Virus record (IMG/VR): IMGVR_UViG_3300031087_000234 | Span: 1 to 64,000 of that record | Length of the DNA stretch: 64,000 bases | Source of the DNA: an uncultured virus (IMG/VR IMGVR_UViG_3300031087_000234) | Lineage: Duplodnaviria; Heunggongvirae; Uroviricota; Caudoviricetes | Strand: one strand, 5' to 3' | Shown: positions 39,115 to 43,965 of the stretch, in pieces | Position numbering within the stretch: position 1 is the first letter of the stretch | How the letters are laid out: each line of letters starts with the position of its first letter | Made by a program: the position numbers and the translations under genes | The notes under the pieces: model-generated | Databases searched by the model: none | Told to the model about the DNA's origin: nothing | What the model saw: the letters and a program-made list of their open reading frames with translations, nothing else

Positions 39115-39761
39115 TTTATTTTCCTTGGTTGATTGTTTTCTCTTACCTAGTGAGGCTATCTTAAAGCCCCACTAAATCAAAGTCAAACGATTTATAAACC
39201 CCAGCGACGAAAACCACAATCTTTATTTTTATTCAACTCCGATTTAAGACGCTTACAACGTTGACGAATCGCATATAGATCCGGTGTGCATACCGTTGCG
39301 CCTGATTTAAAGTGAATAGCCATTACATATTGTTTCATTGCTTTGTTTCCGTTTTCGTCTCAGTGATAAGAATACTACAGATTTTTGTTTTCTAGGTCAA
39401 CACTATTTTAGAAAAAGATTTTAGATAGTACTGGAATCCAGACAAGCAAGGAAAACAAACCAGCGATGATCCAGCCTTCTTTACGAACTCCACGATTTGC
39501 GCGGTCTTCGTTATCGTTTTGCATAGTGATGAAATCGGCTTGCTTGAAGTTAGTTGGCTTGTTCATAATTCGTTTTCCTTGGTTGTTTGTTTAAGTTGTC
39601 TTGTTACTGTGAAGCTAGTGTATCATACTGATTCTTTATTTCAACTACTATTTCGTTTCTTTTTCAACTTATCCAGACTTCGTATGCTCTGGCGCTACTG
39701 CCCTTGCGGGTGGCTCCCTGCCTCGTTGATGTGGTAATACTAAGGGATCTCGTTTTGTCTG

Positions 39762-40295
39762 TCAATCAAAGAATCGTTTATTTAATGCTTTTTTCAATTC
39801 TTCTTCTGTAAAGCCTTCGCTGTCTGCTACTTCTGCGAATAATACCGGTTCGCTATCTTCTTCCTGCTCTTCTTCGTCGTCTGGCTCTGCTAACTTGTGG
39901 ATCTTCGCTTCTGCCTTCTTAAGTTTGTTATCTAACACCCTCATAGCTAGATCAAAAGTCCCTTGTGTAATTCTCCTGGCTTCTAGGTCTGCCGTTAGTG
40001 CTGCTGCTTTCGGCTCGTACTCTTCCAGAATCTTAAACGCTGGATCTACAGCATACAAAGGATTAACGCGCCGCGCCGCTCTTTCTGGTTCTGCTGCTCC
40101 GGCAATGTCTGCCGTGCCGTCAGGATTCCAGCCTGGGATCGTTCGAGTCCTTACGTTACCGTTAGACCGTGCCAGACGGTTGCCTACTTGCTCCCCGCTA
40201 TACCCTACAGAATGATCTAGAAGCTCGTCAGGAATAACCCGCCAATCATCAGGATCGTGCTTTACCCAGGATTGGATCACATACTCACGCCCCAT
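39762..40295 (-). CDS. Hypothetical protein with acidic C-terminus
   Basis: GGAGG RBS, TAATG coupling. Confidence 0.7.
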   Translation of the reverse strand: MGREYVIQSWVKHDPDDWRVIPDELLDHSVGYSGEQVGNRLARSNGNVRTRTIPGWNPDGTADIAGAAEPERAARRVNPLYAVDPAFKILEEYEPKAAALTADLEARRITQGTFDLAMRVLDNKLKKAEAKIHKLAEPDDEEEQEEDSEPVLFAEVADSEGFTEEELKKALNKRFFD

Positions 40296-40555
40296 TAAAA
40301 GATCCTCCGCTGCTGTTTAACTTTGATGATTGCATTATATAAGATCTCCGCGTCTTTTGAATAGTAACCGTCTAACGTTACGCCGTTAGCGTATTTGTGA
40401 ATCAACACCTGTGCAAAGGTTAACACACAATTCACCATAATAAAGCCAGGTGCAACCGTTGCGCTATGTGGATTCTTCACAACACTAGCTAACAGTCTTT
40501 GCGGTTTCTCTGAGTTGAAAACGTAAAGTTCACCGCCTGTCTTGAATGGAAACAT
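40295..40555 (-). CDS. Hypothetical protein
   Basis: First gene after the divergent promoter region. Confidence 0.65.
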   Translation of the reverse strand: MFPFKTGGELYVFNSEKPQRLLASVVKNPHSATVAPGFIMVNCVLTFAQVLIHKYANGVTLDGYYSKDAEILYNAIIKVKQQRRIF

Positions 40556-40689
40556 TTTTGCCCTCTCTGTTGATTAGGCTTCGTATTCTACAGATAAATG
40601 ATTTTAAATCAAGTATTGTTTTTACTTTTGTTTAGTGTATTATAGCCACACTAAACACGGGAAGCCGTGATATATAAAGGAAAACAGAG

Positions 40690-40917
40690 ATGAAACAGTT
40701 TACTATGGTATCAGCAAAAAGCCCTTTCCAGATTAAGTCCCTGAATGGGCGGGGCCGTCCTGTTAATGTAAAGCCAGGCGATCTGTTCCTTGTTACCTCT
40801 CCGGCACATACAAACGCTAGTCAGGTTATGATCGACCGTAAAACAAAAGCGATGATCAATTCAGGCTATTGTCTGAGCCGCGCAGACCTAGCGACTTTCT
40901 TTGATATTGTCGAATAA
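40690..40917 (+). CDS. Hypothetical protein
   Basis: AAGGA RBS, divergent promoter. Confidence 0.7.
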   Translation: MKQFTMVSAKSPFQIKSLNGRGRPVNVKPGDLFLVTSPAHTNASQVMIDRKTKAMINSGYCLSRADLATFFDIVE

Positions 40918-40922
40918 AACTA

Positions 40923-40951
40923 TTGATTGCCCGATTCATTTCGGGCATAAT
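40923..40951 (+). promoter_or_regulatory. sigma70 promoter with spacer hairpin
   Basis: TTGATT-17-CATAAT; GCCCGA...TCGGGC. Confidence 0.7.
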
Positions 40952-40980
40952 GTTCTGACTCCAACAAATAGGACAAGAAA

Positions 40981-41157
40981 ATGATTACTTCCTCAGATAC
41001 AATGGTTACTCTCTTTACCTGGGAAACAAGTGCGCTGCACTGCGGATCTCGCCGGGTTCCATTGCCTCACGCTATGAGGATGTTAGACGCGGGTTTTTAT
41101 CGTGTGAAGGTAGTAGCGGAGAACGGGGAAATAATTGCGGATTCACTGGAATATTAA
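40981..41157 (+). CDS. 58 aa hypothetical protein (not in ORF track)
   Basis: AGGA RBS, own promoter. Confidence 0.55.
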   Translation: MITSSDTMVTLFTWETSALHCGSRRVPLPHAMRMLDAGFYRVKVVAENGEIIADSLEY

Positions 41158-41186
41158 TTGACTACCTGGCCCCGCCAGGCTATGCT
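41158..41186 (+). promoter_or_regulatory. sigma70 promoter with spacer hairpin
   Basis: TTGACT-17-TATGCT; CCTGGC-CCC-GCCAGG. Confidence 0.7.
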
Positions 41187-41216
41187 AATCGAACTGAAAC
41201 AAACAAGGGTTACGCT

Positions 41217-41375
41217 ATGATCGATCAATACTACCTGGTAAAAGTTTTCGATGCGGATTCTAATTCTACAACAACTTTAAGCCGTTGCGGTACGGTAGAG
41301 GAAATAAAGGAAAGCGTAGAGGATGACGGCTGGACTTTTGTTTGTATTATTGGACGTGACAAAAATTATGATTAA
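41217..41375 (+). CDS. 52 aa hypothetical protein (not in ORF track)
   Basis: AAGGG RBS, own promoter. Confidence 0.55.
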   Translation: MIDQYYLVKVFDADSNSTTTLSRCGTVEEIKESVEDDGWTFVCIIGRDKNYD

Positions 41376-41378
41376 GTA

Positions 41379-41407
41379 TTGACGCCAGGCGCAAGCCTGG
41401 TTATACT
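41379..41407 (+). promoter_or_regulatory. Strong sigma70 promoter with spacer hairpin
   Basis: TTGACG-17-TATACT; CCAGGC-GCAA-GCCTGG. Confidence 0.8.
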
Positions 41408-41413
41408 GTTTTC

Positions 41414-41495
41414 ACAGTAAGGCAACGCCTACCAACGGCGCTAAACTTGGCTAGCAGGCCCGAAGGGGCTGCAAGGTGAATCGCCGGTAAGCTGT
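41414..41495 (+). ncRNA. Candidate structured small RNA (~82 nt)
   Basis: Starts at the predicted +1, no ORF, nested stems with paired 5'/3' ends. Confidence 0.5.
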
Positions 41496-41639
41496 CTAAA
41501 ATAAGTTTTGTAAAGATTGAAATAATCGTTGATCTATTCAGTCAGTATGATATTATATTCCCAGAGTAAGACGCTGCTTAAGTGAAGAGAGAACCGCCCC
41601 TGCCCGTCATTCAGATAGTAACGTCCGGTGATTAATAGT

Positions 41640-41965
41640 TTCCTAACGAAATAGTCACGTCTGAAACTATCACGCCCGAAACCATTAGCCTGCAAACTAT
41701 CACCCCCGAAACTATGATCAGGCGCATAATACCTGCCGAAAATGCGATTTTTTAATATAATTCTGGAAAATGAAATTCTGTTTTTCAAAAAGTCAAAAAA
41801 ATCCTACGACCCTGGCCCGATTTTTTAAAAATAATTTTGTCAAGGTTTTTCTGATTTTTTCTGATACAGGTGAGATTTGTTCGGGATCGATTCTTAATAT
41901 AATTTCGGGATTTCTAAATCTGGTTTCTGAAAACTCGAAAAAATCCTACGACCTTTTGCCGATTT
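41640..41965. repeat. Non-coding direct-repeat block
   Basis: AAACTATCACnCCCGAAAC x2 (41664, 41694); AAAAAATCCTACGACC x2 (41796, 41938); A/T tracts. Confidence 0.75.
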
Positions 41966-42174
41966 CTTGGATTAAGTTTTATAGGTATCTTTAAGAACTA
42001 CTGAGAACAATCCTGAGAGGTTTTTAAACTTATCTAGGTGAGTTTATGGGTTAGGTGAGAGAGTTTGCCACAACGCTGTACAGGAAGCAGGAGAGGGATT
42101 AGTTCTCCCATTTCCAGGGATCGGCACGTCACTTCAAATCCCTTTTCCGTTTCAAATATCACAGCAAATATCAA

Positions 42175-42796
42175 TCACTCAATAGAGAAAATTACTGAAC
42201 AATCGTCTGATTCTTCCAAGCTGAAAGAGTGCAGCTTGAGAACTCCCTCTGGCTTTGCCACGGTAAGGGCCGAGAAAAGAACCTTAAGAGCATCACAGTT
42301 GTTTTCTGCATATTGCAGAGTGAATGGTACTGTAGTTCCTAAGTGTTGCACAAGCATAGCTGTACTGTTCTCTGATATGTCAGCAACAAAACTAACCACA
42401 CCTGCCTCATACTCAATCTTACTTGCCGGAATGGGAATACCTGCAATGTTCAACAGGGTTCGCATATGGTTGTAATATCTACTCATAATCACATACCTCC
42501 TCATAAGGAATAATTCTATCTACATTCTCTAGGATGTACTTTAACACAATATCCTTGTTGTTACCTGCGGAAACGTCTGAACACTCTAAATAGAATAGTG
42601 TGTGATTGTGCAGACTACCATCTGAGCAGAGGATTTCTTGAGACACTTCCAAGAAAACATCATCACGTTCAGCTAAATAGTATCTCTCTGCCCAAATACC
42701 GCTCACTACATTATAATCCCAACGAATCCTACCACGTTCCAGTGCTTCCAGAACGGATACTTTAATGTAATGTGTTACTGCAATCTCTACTTCCAT
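42175..42796 (-). other. Two hypothetical genes (42175-42486, 42479-42796)
   Basis: GAGG RBSs, overlapping. Confidence 0.6.
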
Positions 42797-42810
42797 ACAC
42801 CCTCCATAAG

Positions 42811-42831
42811 AAAAAGGGGCCGAAGCCCCTT
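42811..42831 (-). terminator. Intrinsic terminator
   Basis: AGGGGC-TTCG-GCCCCT-TTTT on the minus strand. Confidence 0.85.
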
Positions 42832-42834
42832 ATT

Positions 42835-43965
42835 TTAGAAAATCCGACTGAATCCACCTGTAGCAGTGATTGGCTGCTCAAGTACGAGTCGCAGTGCTGA
42901 CCCTGTATTGTCCTCGAACACCAGCTTACCGCCGTCTGTGATAGCCATAGCCATTGTGTTAGCGCTAAAGGTGAGTTCTGATGTATCATCGTCATCTTCA
43001 CCTACTTTAATCAGGGGTACACTTTTCAGTAATGCCTTCTGAGTGGCTTTCTCTTTCAGGTAAACGGTCAACTGAATGTTGTTGTCCAGGAACTTAATCA
43101 GATCGAATCCGTAGATACCTGATACGTGACCTGTCTGAATCACTTCACCGTTGATTGTCATCTCTGACAGCTTCCACTCACCCTTGCCAGCGCCGAACGT
43201 GATACCCATCATATCCAGAGCATCCTTAAAATGCATCTCGGGATAGGCGTTTAGCTCCTCAACTAACCCTTGGATAACATCGAAGGACAGTTCAAAGCTC
43301 ACTTCGTGCAAACGATTGAAGCCTGCAATGTGTTGTTTGTTATCCAGTTGATGTTCTAAGTAGTCAGTCATTGTTGCATCGCTGATCTTATCATAATCAA
43401 AGCTGTAGAAAATACGGCTAGGGCGGTTTTTAAAGAACTCAGACAAGAAGCCATTGTTCTTTGTCAGCATAAACATTTTATTACCTGTACCTGTGCCGTC
43501 TAAGACAGTCAGAAGAGATTCCTGTTTCTTCTTTTCATCGTAGAGTTTATCAAACTCATCGATCATCACCATAGCTTTCTCTTGAATCTTGGACATAAAC
43601 TCAATAAAGCCTGCGTCTGTGTACGGCTCGGAGATCAGAATGGTACTGATGCCTAGTGTTGCCAGTTTCTTAGCAACCACTTTTGCCAGCATTGTTTTAC
43701 CACTACCTTTTGTACCAGAAAGGAGTACGCCAGTGTTATCACCTTTTTCCGCACGGCGCAGATAGGTTTTGATTACGTGGTTTGCTCGACTGTCTGTTTC
43801 ACCGTAGAGTTTTGACGGGATGTCCATATCTGGAACCAGAGCCAGATGATAACCAATGTTATCATTATAGGACAGTGCATACGTCCCTACAGGCAGGCTA
43901 TCCATTGGGATGCCCATACGCTTGTTAATTGTAATCAGTTCACCGTAACGGGTATAAGTAGACAT
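42835..43965 (-). CDS. AAA+ ATPase
   Basis: GTKGSGKT Walker A, MIDEFDK Walker B, NRPSR Arg finger. Confidence 0.88.
   Translation of the reverse strand: MSTYTRYGELITINKRMGIPMDSLPVGTYALSYNDNIGYHLALVPDMDIPSKLYGETDSRANHVIKTYLRRAEKGDNTGVLLSGTKGSGKTMLAKVVAKKLATLGISTILISEPYTDAGFIEFMSKIQEKAMVMIDEFDKLYDEKKKQESLLTVLDGTGTGNKMFMLTKNNGFLSEFFKNRPSRIFYSFDYDKISDATMTDYLEHQLDNKQHIAGFNRLHEVSFELSFDVIQGLVEELNAYPEMHFKDALDMMGITFGAGKGEWKLSEMTINGEVIQTGHVSGIYGFDLIKFLDNNIQLTVYLKEKATQKALLKSVPLIKVGEDDDDTSELTFSANTMAMAITDGGKLVFEDNTGSALRLVLEQPITATGGFSRIF

What the first reader, a model, noticed from the sequence alone, without database searches (positions are those of the whole stretch)
41379..41500. Promoter-driven ~82 nt structured RNA at the edge of the early island
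Seen: a near-consensus promoter (TTGACG-17-TATACT) is followed by no ORF. From the predicted +1 (41414) a GC-rich sequence folds as nested stems: ACAGU/GCUGU closing the two ends, AGGC-AAC-GCCU, CGGCG/CGCCG, CUUG/CAAG and apical GCCC-GAAG-GGGC. It matches no tRNA or ribozyme that I recognise. Inference: an early phage sRNA, possibly an RNA decoy or antitoxin mimic, or a packaging-related RNA given its position near a probable terminus.
Basis: partly seen in the sequence, partly recalled or inferred. Interest (0 to 1): 0.8.

Follow-up and report, generated by a model that had tools for sequence, protein, structure and literature searches.

The report
Conserved pseudoknotted small RNA of phages
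A strong promoter in this phage drives a roughly 90-base non-coding RNA whose folded shape is kept in hundreds of related phages, so it looks like a real RNA gene that I could not find described, and its job is still unknown.

Summary
The promoter (41379-41407) and the absence of any ORF, tRNA or Rfam match are confirmed. The window's sequence alone does not fold better than shuffles (z -0.98).

Comparison nevertheless shows a real RNA gene. The stretch 41409-41520 is the only nucleotide-conserved piece in 2 kb. A relative of it matches 248 phage records (rV5-like, phi92-like, Aeromonas Plateaulakevirus). A sigma-70-type promoter sits at a fixed distance in 36 of 36 distinct upstream regions.

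The conserved fold has three parts:
- a small H-type pseudoknot (CGCC/GGCG interleaved with CCAA/UUGG);
- a long hairpin with a bulged A, in which every pair covaries;
- an invariant junction, AAGGU-NN-AUCGCCGG-UAG.

In Aeromonas phages it is a stand-alone gene with promoter and terminator. In two phages an HNH endonuclease cassette has split the gene and carries a replacement 5' part.

It is not pseudo-ToxI, a tRNA or a repeat. Its function is unknown. My best reading is a trans-acting folded RNA that shows its invariant junction to a conserved partner. It is a new family as far as Rfam 15 and my literature searches show.

The parts
41379..41407 (+). Promoter P1: -35 TTGACG (41379-41384), 17-nt spacer, -10 TATACT (41402-41407)
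   Evidence: 10 of 12. An equivalent promoter with 9 or more of 12 matches and 17-18 nt spacing is found in 36 of 36 distinct upstream regions of homologues. Only 5.9% of 2000 random 72-nt windows reach that score.
41385..41400 (+). Hairpin CCAGGC-GCAA-GCCTGG inside the promoter spacer, followed by a T-rich run. Probably the intrinsic terminator of the upstream unit, nested in P1.
   Evidence: Called terminator-like (41384-41401). The stem changes in a compensated way in relatives; spacer sequences are. That it acts as a terminator is inferred.
41414..41500 (+). Conserved core of the small RNA, from the predicted +1 to the end of family-wide conservation. The 3' end is not defined.
   Evidence: Covariance-model hit 41409-41520, 100.1 bits, E 2.3e-22, the only hit in the window (next best 14.8 bits). 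It is the only megablast-conserved piece of 40600-42600. The +1 is inferred from the distance to the -10 box.
41426..41440 (+). Pseudoknot stem S1: CGCC (41426-41429) pairs with GGCG (41437-41440)
   Evidence: Of 33 distinct variants, 23 are CGCC/GGCG, 1 is GGAC/GUCU, 1 is AGAC/GUCU and 8 have 3 bp. The compensated forms occur only in the Aeromonas-phage-like lineage.
41432..41450 (+). Pseudoknot stem S2: CCAA (41432-41435) pairs with TTGG (41447-41450). Loops are L1 TA, L2 C and L3 CTAAAC (41441-41446).
   Evidence: Full 4-bp forms are CCCC/GGGG, CUCC/GGGG, CCAA/UUGG, CCAU/AUGG and CCAG/CUGG, in 27 of 33 variants. Five variants have 3 bp and one has 2 bp (3 variants that the script mis-anchored were read by eye). 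L3 tolerates a 46-nt insertion in some Aeromonas phages.
41454..41472 (+). Hairpin P3: GCA(G)GCCC-GAAG-GGGCTGC, 7 bp with one bulged purine
   Evidence: All 7 pairs show changes on both sides. The same result holds on the MAFFT-only alignment, 6 of 6 pairs. RNAalifold finds it too.
41473..41493 (+). Invariant junction AAGGT-GA-ATCGCCGG, then TA(A)GCT, which can pair with GGCTA (41449-41453) as helix c
   Evidence: Invariant columns. Helix c is paired in 91.6% of cells but only with G-C to G-U changes. In the type-2 copies of phages cardinal and P7_Pc the 5' strand of helix c lies on the other side of P3, and AAUCGCCGG stays enclosed by it.
41529..41612 (+). Second promoter-like site P2 (TTGATC-16-TATTAT, 41529-41556) and a second conserved block (about 41560-41612). 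A neighbour, not shown to belong to the RNA.
   Evidence: No consensus fold was found. It is absent from the Aeromonas loci.

Best explanation
Positions 41379 to about 41500 hold an independent gene for a structured non-coding RNA of about 90 nt, of a family that I did not find described. Host RNA polymerase starts at a near-consensus sigma-70 promoter. The promoter's spacer also holds what is probably the terminator hairpin of the upstream unit.

The transcript folds into three parts. The first is a compact H-type pseudoknot: S1 CGCC/GGCG is interleaved with S2 CCAA/UUGG, and loop 3 is A-rich. The second is a 7-bp hairpin with a bulged purine. The third is an invariant, mostly unpaired junction (AAGGU-NN-AUCGCCGG), closed by a short helix (GGCUA/UAGCU).

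My proposal is that it acts in trans as a folded RNA. The pseudoknot and hairpin would serve as a scaffold, and the invariant junction would be the working surface that binds a conserved partner early in infection. The partner could be a host component or a core phage protein or RNA. I lean slightly to a protein partner.

Shown here: the promoter, its conservation, the fold, the stand-alone gene form, the single copy, and the restriction to phages. Inferred: that it is transcribed, where its 3' end lies, that it acts in trans, and what it binds.
For: 1. Conservation. In a 2-kb query only 41414-41532 matches other phages (85-86%, Erwinia phages). A more sensitive search finds 76 records. The E. 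coli-phage version finds 248 records, with Escherichia 121, Klebsiella 40, Salmonella 15, Cronobacter 15 and Aeromonas 10.

2. Promoter. 36 of 36 distinct upstream regions carry a promoter with 9 or more of 12 matches that ends within -2 to +5 nt of the model start. The control is 5.9% of random windows.

3. Fold. On the MAFFT alignment of 30 sequences the covariation score is 0.310 against 0.096 +/- 0.014 in shuffles (0 of 500 reach it) and at most 0.086 when partners are slid; 9 pairs change on both sides, against 5.6 +/- 1.1. On 43 distinct sequences aligned to the model the score is 0.266 against 0.090 (0 of 500) and at most 0.056 when slid. Both pseudoknot stems have compensated variants. 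G-U pairs occur, so the fold belongs to the + strand sense.

4. Not coding. No ORF of 20 aa or more is present, and the hairpin loop length varies by numbers that are not multiples of three.

5. Stand-alone gene. In Aeromonas phage 2L372D the RNA lies alone in a 310-bp gap, antiparallel to both neighbouring genes, with its own TTGCTT-17-TATAAT promoter and a hairpin-plus-T terminator.

6. Kept when disrupted. In phages cardinal and Ro1 an HNH endonuclease gene (phrog_953, E 2.3e-81) is inserted after GATCGC. It is followed by a new promoter and a diverged 5' part that rejoins the resident 3' part into a complete copy. P7_Pc keeps both copies with only a remnant of the endonuclease gene.

7. 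Restricted to phages. Among 185,579 species genomes the pattern hit 5 places, and the model confirmed only one, on a 4-kb MAG contig.
Against: - No transcript has been seen. The only true RNA-seq run that shares words with this region covers 41641-41900, not the RNA, and all four runs that I laid are contigs.
- In the window and other rV5-like phages no terminator follows the RNA on the + strand. The 3' end is therefore unknown, and read-through into the downstream non-coding region is possible.
- The window's sequence alone does not fold better than shuffles.
- S1 covaries in one lineage only. One variant (L141) keeps only 2 of 4 S2 pairs and five keep 3.
- Helix c and the alternative CGGCG/CGCCG pairing carry no informative covariation.
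- No partner is identified. Complementarity to E. coli rRNA and the operon's tRNAs is no better than for shuffled queries (105 of 200 shuffles as good). Sites complementary to the invariant element are not clearly enriched in the window (12 against 7.3 +/- 2.5; 3 of 100 shuffles reach 12).
- Related sequences share ancestry, so shuffle controls overstate significance. The slid-partner controls are the fairer test.
Confidence: 0.6

Rival explanations
1. Origin-linked transcript. P1 and its RNA serve in cis to activate or prime a replication origin in the adjacent non-coding repeat region, as promoters do at the T7 primary origin, T4 oriF/oriG or ColE1 RNA II (recalled).
For: In the window and in rV5- and phi92-like relatives the RNA opens a gene-free stretch of about 800 bp. 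That stretch holds further rightward promoter-like sites and repeats (a 15-bp unit in 4.1 copies at 41655-41715, and 78-nt direct repeats). It is followed by an AAA+ ATPase gene with weak likeness to helicase and clamp loaders (42835-43965, phrog_2376, E 2.7e-95). No terminator follows the RNA, and AT-rich DNA does.
Against: In Aeromonas Plateaulakevirus phages the same RNA is a closed gene (promoter to terminator) between small genes, with no repeat region beside it. A primer or an activating transcript does not need a covarying pseudoknot with an invariant junction. That the repeat region is an origin is itself unproven.
Confidence: 0.12
2. A cis-acting RNA element on its own transcript. It could be a put-like modifier of RNA polymerase that suppresses termination downstream (HK022 put, recalled), or a 5' stabiliser or leader.
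For: It lies directly behind a strong early promoter, and no terminator follows it in the rV5-like phages. In phage cardinal the truncated copy 1 (pseudoknot plus hairpin) is the 5' leader of the endonuclease gene.
Against: In most genomes no gene follows on the same strand. In Aeromonas phages a terminator follows within about 45 nt. The endonuclease cassette restores a complete copy, invariant junction included, although copy 1 already supplies a leader.
Confidence: 0.08
3. A catalytic or ligand-binding RNA (a small self-cleaving ribozyme or an orphan aptamer). The invariant junction beside covarying stems would be the active core.
For: The pattern of covarying helices around strictly invariant unpaired nucleotides, with a pseudoknot, is typical of ribozymes and riboswitch aptamers (general knowledge). 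The sequence identity of the core across distant phage groups is unusually high.
Against: No Rfam ribozyme or riboswitch family matches, even at E up to 10. There is no downstream gene to regulate. Nothing here tests cleavage or binding.
Confidence: 0.1
4. A base-pairing regulatory sRNA that uses the exposed AUCGCCGG element as a seed against a host or phage mRNA.
For: There is an invariant, probably single-stranded 8-11-nt element. The Aeromonas version ends in an AU-rich stretch plus a terminator, like Hfq-dependent sRNAs.
Against: No such terminator exists in the window's lineage. No target site with at most 1 mismatch occurs in the 64-kb window other than the gene's own opposite strand. 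Elaborate pseudoknots are unusual for such sRNAs. Host genomes were not scanned.
Confidence: 0.15
5. A DNA-level element (a protein-binding site, or single-strand hairpins at an origin or packaging site) rather than an RNA.
For: The invariant GATCGCCGGTAG could be a protein site. An endonuclease cassette has inserted within it.
Against: A promoter is kept at a fixed distance in 36 of 36 regions. Compensated changes include G-U pairs that would be A-C on the other strand. A terminator closes the gene in Aeromonas phages.
Confidence: 0.04
6. One reading: an antitoxin mimic of the ToxI type, or a packaging RNA.
For: Relative phiTE does use an RNA mimic of ToxI (PMC3475682, abstract and passages). 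The RNA contains a pseudoknot.
Against: It is a different locus in phiTE (39,685-39,805 against 106,714-106,772). There are no tandem repeats. No Rfam match was found. It lies at no conserved position near a genome end: the position in the record varies widely, and these genomes are circularly permuted in phiTE.
Confidence: 0.03

Closest known systems
Candidate structured RNAs catalogued from IMG/VR (Fremin, Bhatt, Kyrpides 2023, PMC10690425; outline, passages and part of the supplements seen)
   Same: The catalogue was built from the same kind of data (conserved, covarying intergenic stretches of phage contigs). It lists 8,495 unnamed candidates of 29-151 nt.
   Different: I could not establish whether this RNA is among them. 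Six contig numbers gave no hit in the readable tables, but the alignment archives and one table could not be read. The paper's text does not describe such an RNA.
Pseudo-ToxI of Pectobacterium phage phiTE (PMC3475682)
   Same: A non-coding RNA of an rV5-like phage that forms a pseudoknot and acts in trans on a host protein.
   Different: Pseudo-ToxI is a 36-nt tandem repeat at 106,714-106,772. The RNA studied here is single, unrepeated, about 90 nt long, and lies at 39,685-39,805 in the same phage.
Phage T4 stable RNAs C and D (species 1 and 2; recalled, no call)
   Same: Small, stable, phage-encoded RNAs made by host polymerase, long known and still without a function.
   Different: The T4 RNAs lie in the tRNA cluster and are processed with the tRNAs. 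Here no tRNA is nearby. No T4-like phage appears in the organism tallies or in the rows shown (60 of 76 and 40 of 248 records shown).
HK022 put RNA and other promoter-proximal RNA elements (recalled)
   Same: A structured RNA directly behind an early promoter, with function residing in the fold.
   Different: put acts in cis on genes downstream. Here nothing coding follows, and the Aeromonas version is terminated at once.
Transcription-activated or RNA-primed origins (T7 primary origin, T4 oriF/oriG, ColE1 RNA II; recalled)
   Same: A promoter-driven non-coding transcript next to AT-rich DNA and repeats.
   Different: The RNA occurs without such a region in Aeromonas phages. Those primers are not known for a conserved pseudoknot core.
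Free-standing homing endonucleases in conserved phage genes, such as SegB in the T4 tRNA cluster (recalled)
   Same: An HNH endonuclease gene sits in or next to a highly conserved RNA gene. Filled and empty sites are 99% identical in their flanks.
   Different: Here the cassette brings its own promoter and a diverged replacement 5' part of the RNA, so a complete gene is restored.

Membership tests
Any Rfam 15 family | Covariance-model score at or above the gathering threshold | tested here: not met
   There were 0 matches in the whole window. At E up to 10 in 41000-42000 there were 3 weak matches, none overlapping 41379-41520.
tRNA / tmRNA | Cloverleaf or tmRNA detected by ARAGORN | tested here: not met
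   0 genes in 64 kb.
H-type RNA pseudoknot (structural class) | Two helices with interleaved strands (S1 5', S2 5', S1 3', S2 3'), both supported by compensatory change | tested here: met
   S1 occurs as CGCC/GGCG, GGAC/GUCU and AGAC/GUCU. S2 occurs as CCCC/GGGG, CCAA/UUGG, CCAU/AUGG, CCAG/CUGG and CUCC/GGGG (columns). Support for S1 comes from one lineage only. Six of 33 variants have a weakened S2.
Type III antitoxin RNA (ToxI / pseudo-ToxI) | Tandem direct repeats of about 36 nt | tested here: not met
   Tandem Repeats Finder finds no array in 41379-41520.
Type III antitoxin RNA (ToxI / pseudo-ToxI) | Same locus as the phiTE escape locus | tested here: not met
   The homologue lies at phiTE 39,685-39,805. 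The escape locus is at 106,714-106,772 (PMC3475682).
Type III antitoxin RNA (ToxI / pseudo-ToxI) | Neutralises a ToxN-type endoribonuclease | not testable with these tools
   Needs a protection assay.
Hfq-type base-pairing sRNA | Rho-independent terminator with a U tail at the 3' end | tested here: inconclusive
   None follows on the + strand in the window. One is present in the Aeromonas phage version.
Hfq-type base-pairing sRNA | Conserved seed with complementary target sites | tested here: inconclusive
   An invariant exposed element exists. No convincing target was found in the window or in the E. coli rRNA operon. Host genomes were not scanned.
Phage packaging RNA (phi29 pRNA type) | Match to the curated pRNA model; phi29-like host phage | tested here: not met
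   No Rfam match (that Rfam holds a pRNA family is recalled). The carriers are 115-155-kb phages.
Origin primer or activator transcript | Constant adjacency to the replication origin | tested here: inconclusive
   It is adjacent to a repeat-rich non-coding region in rV5- and phi92-like phages but not in Plateaulakevirus. No origin has been mapped.
Independent sigma-70-transcribed gene | Promoter conserved in position and quality across homologues | tested here: met
   36 of 36 distinct upstream regions have 9 or more of 12 matches, against 5.9% of random windows.

The most novel reading that the evidence does not exclude
This is the first member of a new class of functional phage RNA: a pseudoknotted RNA transcribed by host polymerase and needed by the phage. 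Its invariant junction would be a catalytic, ligand-binding or polymerase- or ribosome-binding core. More than 200 lytic phages of three groups keep it, and its sequence is constrained tightly enough for a homing endonuclease to use it as a target while carrying a spare copy.
Probability: 0.2. Interest if true: 0.85.

Novelty: new variant of a known kind. Interest (0 to 1): 0.7.

Why it matters
Phage-encoded small RNAs with a defined fold are few, and most large lytic phages are annotated as protein genes only. This RNA is present in at least 248 sequenced phages, including members of the BASEL collection that grow on E. coli K-12. In every row I saw it is either unannotated or mis-annotated as a 'hypothetical protein' (60 of 76 rows; 40 of 248).

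Three observations point to a function that depends on the fold and matters to the phage:
- the core is almost identical between groups whose flanking DNA no longer aligns;
- the fold is kept by compensatory change;
- a mobile endonuclease cassette that splits the gene also restores it.

Because the carriers are easy laboratory phages, the question can be tested directly. A covariance model would also correct the annotation of hundreds of genomes.

Tried and rejected
- Single-sequence folding is not better than shuffles.
- Rfam and ARAGORN find nothing.
- The pseudo-ToxI idea is rejected on location and on the lack of repeats.
- Expression. Seventeen runs share words with 41200-41900. I laid four of them, and all are contigs. 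The one certain RNA-seq run covers only 41641-41900. Two runs cover the RNA but are probably DNA or of unknown kind. This gives no verdict on transcription.
- Complementarity of the junction to the E. coli 16S, 23S and 5S rRNAs and three tRNAs of the operon. A 9-nt exact complement exists in 23S, but the best duplex energy equals the shuffled mean (105 of 200 as good).
- Complementary sites in the window are not convincing.
- A mutual-information scan for further pairs found only the known helices and phylogenetic signal.
- A terminal closing helix: no register is conserved.
- A CsrA-type GGA sponge, an SRP-like loop, a T-loop and anti-Shine-Dalgarno pairing were considered by eye and dropped. 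The motifs are not conserved across the alignment.
- Block 2 gave no RNAalifold consensus.
- The recalled Fur-box consensus has no match with up to 3 mismatches in the window, although relatives carry Fur-box-like palindromes here.
- Literature. Searches found no description of this RNA. The supplements of PMC10690425 that hold the alignments could not be read. One preprint I checked concerns a T5-like phage and is not relevant.
- Earlier scan notes by place and by sequence returned nothing.

Full report
**What is at the coordinates**

The sequence reads TTGACG (41379-41384), a 17-nt spacer, then TATACT (41402-41407). It is the best promoter-like site in 39500-43500 (10 of 12). The spacer is itself a hairpin, CCAGGC-GCAA-GCCTGG, followed by T-rich sequence, and the same scan calls it terminator-like. 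No ORF of 20 aa or more overlaps 41400-41530 in any frame. ARAGORN finds no tRNA or tmRNA in the window. Rfam 15 gives no match at gathering score, and none over the element at E up to 10.

The fold it drew does not hold. The 87 nt fold at -29.8 kcal/mol, against -26.99 +/- 2.88 for shuffles (z -0.98).

**Conservation**

A megablast of 40600-42600 against 50,697 phage records matched four Erwinia phage records. The match covered only query 815-933, which is window 41414-41532, at 85-86%. That is exactly the predicted transcript.

A more sensitive search with 41350-41560 found 76 records. The E. coli-phage version of the element found 248. These belong to Vequintavirinae (rV5-like), Stephanstirmvirinae (phi92-like) and the Aeromonas genus Plateaulakevirus. 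In all rows shown, the feature under the match is 'none', a 'hypothetical protein', 'unknown function', or the record has no annotation. None is an RNA feature.

Pattern scans gave these results:
- IMG/VR returned 93 stretches. Thirty-six sequences, counting the window and six phage-record loci already fetched, passed a second-motif filter, and two of them (L016, L083) were false.
- Metagenomes returned 27 stretches, of which the model confirmed 22.
- Genomes of 185,579 species returned 5 stretches. Only one is real, on a 4-kb MAG contig.

The element is therefore a phage element. It is single-copy in the window and in its 77-kb record.

**Promoter**

For every distinct upstream region of the model hits I searched for the best -35/-10 pair. 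All 36 have at least 9 of 12 matches with 17-18 nt spacing, and the pair ends within -2 to +5 nt of the model start. In 2000 random 72-nt windows of this window, 5.9% reach 9 of 12 and 0.75% reach 10 of 12. The promoter moves with the RNA even where the upstream gene differs, so this is a dedicated transcription unit.

**Fold**

Alignment of 30 homologues (A2) and a model-based alignment of 44 matches, 43 of them distinct (A3), show three features.

Examples are C-G/G-C 35/8, A-U/G-C 29/14 and C-G/U-A 38/5.

2. *Pseudoknot.* Two 4-bp helices are interleaved as an H-type pseudoknot.
   - S1 is CGCC/GGCG (41426-41429 with 41437-41440).
   - S2 is CCAA/UUGG (41432-41435 with 41447-41450).
   - Among 33 distinct variants S2 appears as CCCC/GGGG, CUCC/GGGG, CCAA/UUGG, CCAU/AUGG and CCAG/CUGG. 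Five variants keep 3 pairs and one (L141) only 2.
   - S1 is CGCC/GGCG in 23 variants, GGAC/GUCU or AGAC/GUCU in the two Aeromonas-like variants, and 3 bp in 8. The script mis-anchored three variants, and I read those by eye.
   - Loop 3 is A-rich and carries a 46-nt structured insertion in some Aeromonas phages.

3. *Invariant junction.* AAGGU-NN-AUCGCCGG, followed by (U/G)AG, is invariant. It is flanked by GGCUA ... UAGCU, which can pair (91.6% of cells) but varies only between G-C and G-U.

For the whole structure:

| Alignment | Covariation score | Shuffles | Slid partners |
|---|---|---|---|
| A2 (MAFFT only, not fitted to any structure) | 0.310 | 0.096 +/- 0.014; 0 of 500 reach it | at most 0.086 |
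| A3 (aligned to the model) | 0.266 | 0.090 +/- 0.009; 0 of 500 reach it | at most 0.056 |

They are paired in 46.0%, 43.0% and 41.9% of cells. Its CGGCG/CGCCG pairing is possible in 97.2% of cells but never tested by variation, and in the Aeromonas phage 2L372D version it loses two of five pairs while S1 is compensated. It may still be an alternative conformation.

**Two natural experiments**

First, in Aeromonas phage 2L372D the RNA lies alone in a 310-bp gap between two genes of the opposite strand. It has its own TTGCTT-17-TATAAT promoter and a GC hairpin followed by T's about 45 nt after the core. This is the anatomy of a stand-alone RNA gene, and there is no repeat region beside it.

Second, in phage cardinal the model finds two copies.
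- Copy 1 is canonical up to GATCGC and then runs into a ribosome-binding site and an ORF of the HNH endonuclease family (phrog_953, E 2.3e-81; no Pfam hit).
- After that ORF comes a new promoter (TTGACA-17-CATAAT, again with a hairpin in its spacer) and a diverged 5' part: pseudoknot of the CCAA/UUGG type, P3, and a changed junction.
- That 5' part rejoins the resident sequence at CGGTAGCTCGTC, giving a complete 'type 2' copy.
- The whole cassette occurs in cardinal and in Raoultella phage Ro1, where RefSeq names the gene HNH endonuclease. P7_Pc has both RNA copies but only the tail of the endonuclease gene. phi92 and many others are empty sites with 99% identical flanks.

I infer that the invariant junction is a homing site and that the cassette compensates for the gene it splits. 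That fits an RNA the phage needs, but it is not proof.

In type 2 the strand GCUA lies 3' of P3 rather than 5' of it, and AAUCGCCGG is still enclosed by the GCUA/UAGC helix. This is the best argument that this helix is real and that AUCGCCGG is displayed unpaired.

**Surroundings**

Upstream lie three short + strand ORFs. One is DUF7170 (40981-41157). Compared with a near-identical relative (L097), the window has an extra promoter plus a 52-aa ORF (41158-41375) between that gene and the RNA. Run contigs and L097 switch sequence at 41422.

Downstream lie:
- a second promoter-like site (41529-41556) and a second conserved block (to about 41612), for which I found no consensus fold;
- a 15-bp unit in 4.1 copies (41655-41715) and 78-nt direct repeats;
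- from 42174 leftward-reading genes, including an AAA+ ATPase (42835-43965).

In relatives the repeat position holds three to six palindromes that look like Fur boxes. The window has none within three mismatches of the recalled consensus. This region may be an origin or a control region. The RNA's link to it is positional only and is absent in Aeromonas phages.

**How it most likely works**

Shown: a dedicated conserved promoter, a fold maintained by selection on the + strand sense, a stand-alone gene form, restriction to phages, and retention after disruption.

Inferred: early transcription by host polymerase; an RNA of about 90 nt in the window, with its 3' end made by processing or by unmapped termination; action in trans.

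The mix of covarying scaffold helices and strictly invariant unpaired nucleotides, nearly identical between phage groups whose flanks no longer align, argues that the fold presents the junction to a slowly evolving partner. I give about 0.6 to 'trans-acting folded RNA that works through the junction'. Within that I lean slightly to a protein partner over an RNA target.

Rivals:

| Rival | Odds |
|---|---|
| Seed-pairing sRNA | 0.15 |
| Origin-linked transcript | 0.12 |
| Ribozyme or aptamer | 0.10 |
| Cis antiterminator or leader | 0.08 |
| DNA-level site | 0.04 |
| ToxI-type mimic or packaging RNA | 0.03 |

These figures overlap in part. The seed-pairing sRNA is one form of the trans-acting reading, so they do not sum to 1.

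I found no partner. rRNA complementarity is at chance level, and the window holds no convincing target.

**Comparison with what is known, and novelty**

It matches no Rfam family. It is not the phiTE pseudo-ToxI. It resembles in kind the T4 stable RNAs of unknown function (recalled).

Five literature searches found no description of it. A 2023 catalogue of about 8,500 unnamed candidate structured RNAs from IMG/VR may include it, but I could not read the files that would tell.

I reached the same reading from my own calls, and the two are not independent proof.

I rate it a new family within the known kind 'phage-encoded structured small RNA', with interest 0.7.

Noticed in passing
Locus L122 (Escherichia phage cardinal, PQ567651.1 89413-90387); also Raoultella phage Ro1 and Pectobacterium phage P7_Pc (L113/L123): An HNH endonuclease cassette is inserted inside the RNA gene after GATCGC. 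It carries its own promoter and a diverged replacement 5' part of the RNA, so a complete second copy results. P7_Pc keeps only a remnant of the endonuclease gene. phi92 and many others are empty sites with 99% identical flanks.
   Followed up: partly
window 41529-41612: A second promoter-like site (TTGATC-16-TATTAT) is followed by a second block conserved across rV5- and phi92-like phages (...ACCGCCCCTGCCCGTCATTC). No consensus fold was found.
   Followed up: partly
window 41649-41723 and 41749-41968: Iteron-like repeats: a 15-bp unit TCACGCCCGAAACTA in 4.1 copies, and two 78-nt direct repeats 142 nt apart (74% alike), in an 800-bp gene-free stretch next to an AAA+ ATPase gene (42835-43965, minus strand). 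Possibly an origin or a control region.
   Followed up: partly
Relatives' loci L002, L003, L021, L031, L057 and others, 60-200 nt downstream of the RNA: Three to six palindromes of the type AATGAGAATGATTCTCATT or GATAATGATTATCATT, which look like Fur boxes, sit where the window has its own different repeats. The window has no match to the recalled Fur consensus within 3 mismatches.
   Followed up: partly
window 41158-41375: Relative to the near-identical relative L097, the window has an inserted module between the DUF7170 gene and the RNA: a promoter with a hairpin in its spacer (TTGACT-17-TATGCT, 41158-41186) plus a 52-aa ORF (41217-41375). Contigs of two runs and L097 switch sequence at 41422.
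   Followed up: partly
window 41158-41186 and 41379-41407; type-2 promoter in L114 and L113: A recurrent design in which a GC hairpin with a GNRA-like loop fills the spacer between the -35 and -10 boxes. It looks like a terminator for the upstream unit nested in the next promoter. The stems change in a compensated way between phages.
   Followed up: partly
Locus L106 (JAEZZU010000352.1, 4,025-bp contig of a 'Proteobacteria bacterium' MAG): It carries a full-scoring copy of the phage RNA (111 bits). The contig is probably phage DNA binned into a bacterial MAG.
   Followed up: no
Phage records MG065639, MG065645, MG065656, MG065689 ('Campylobacter phage' A150, A145, C3, A110a) and MH533020, OP562383 ('Acinetobacter phage'): In this region these records are 99% identical to phi92-like E. 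coli phages, or close to Serratia phages. The host labels look doubtful.
   Followed up: no
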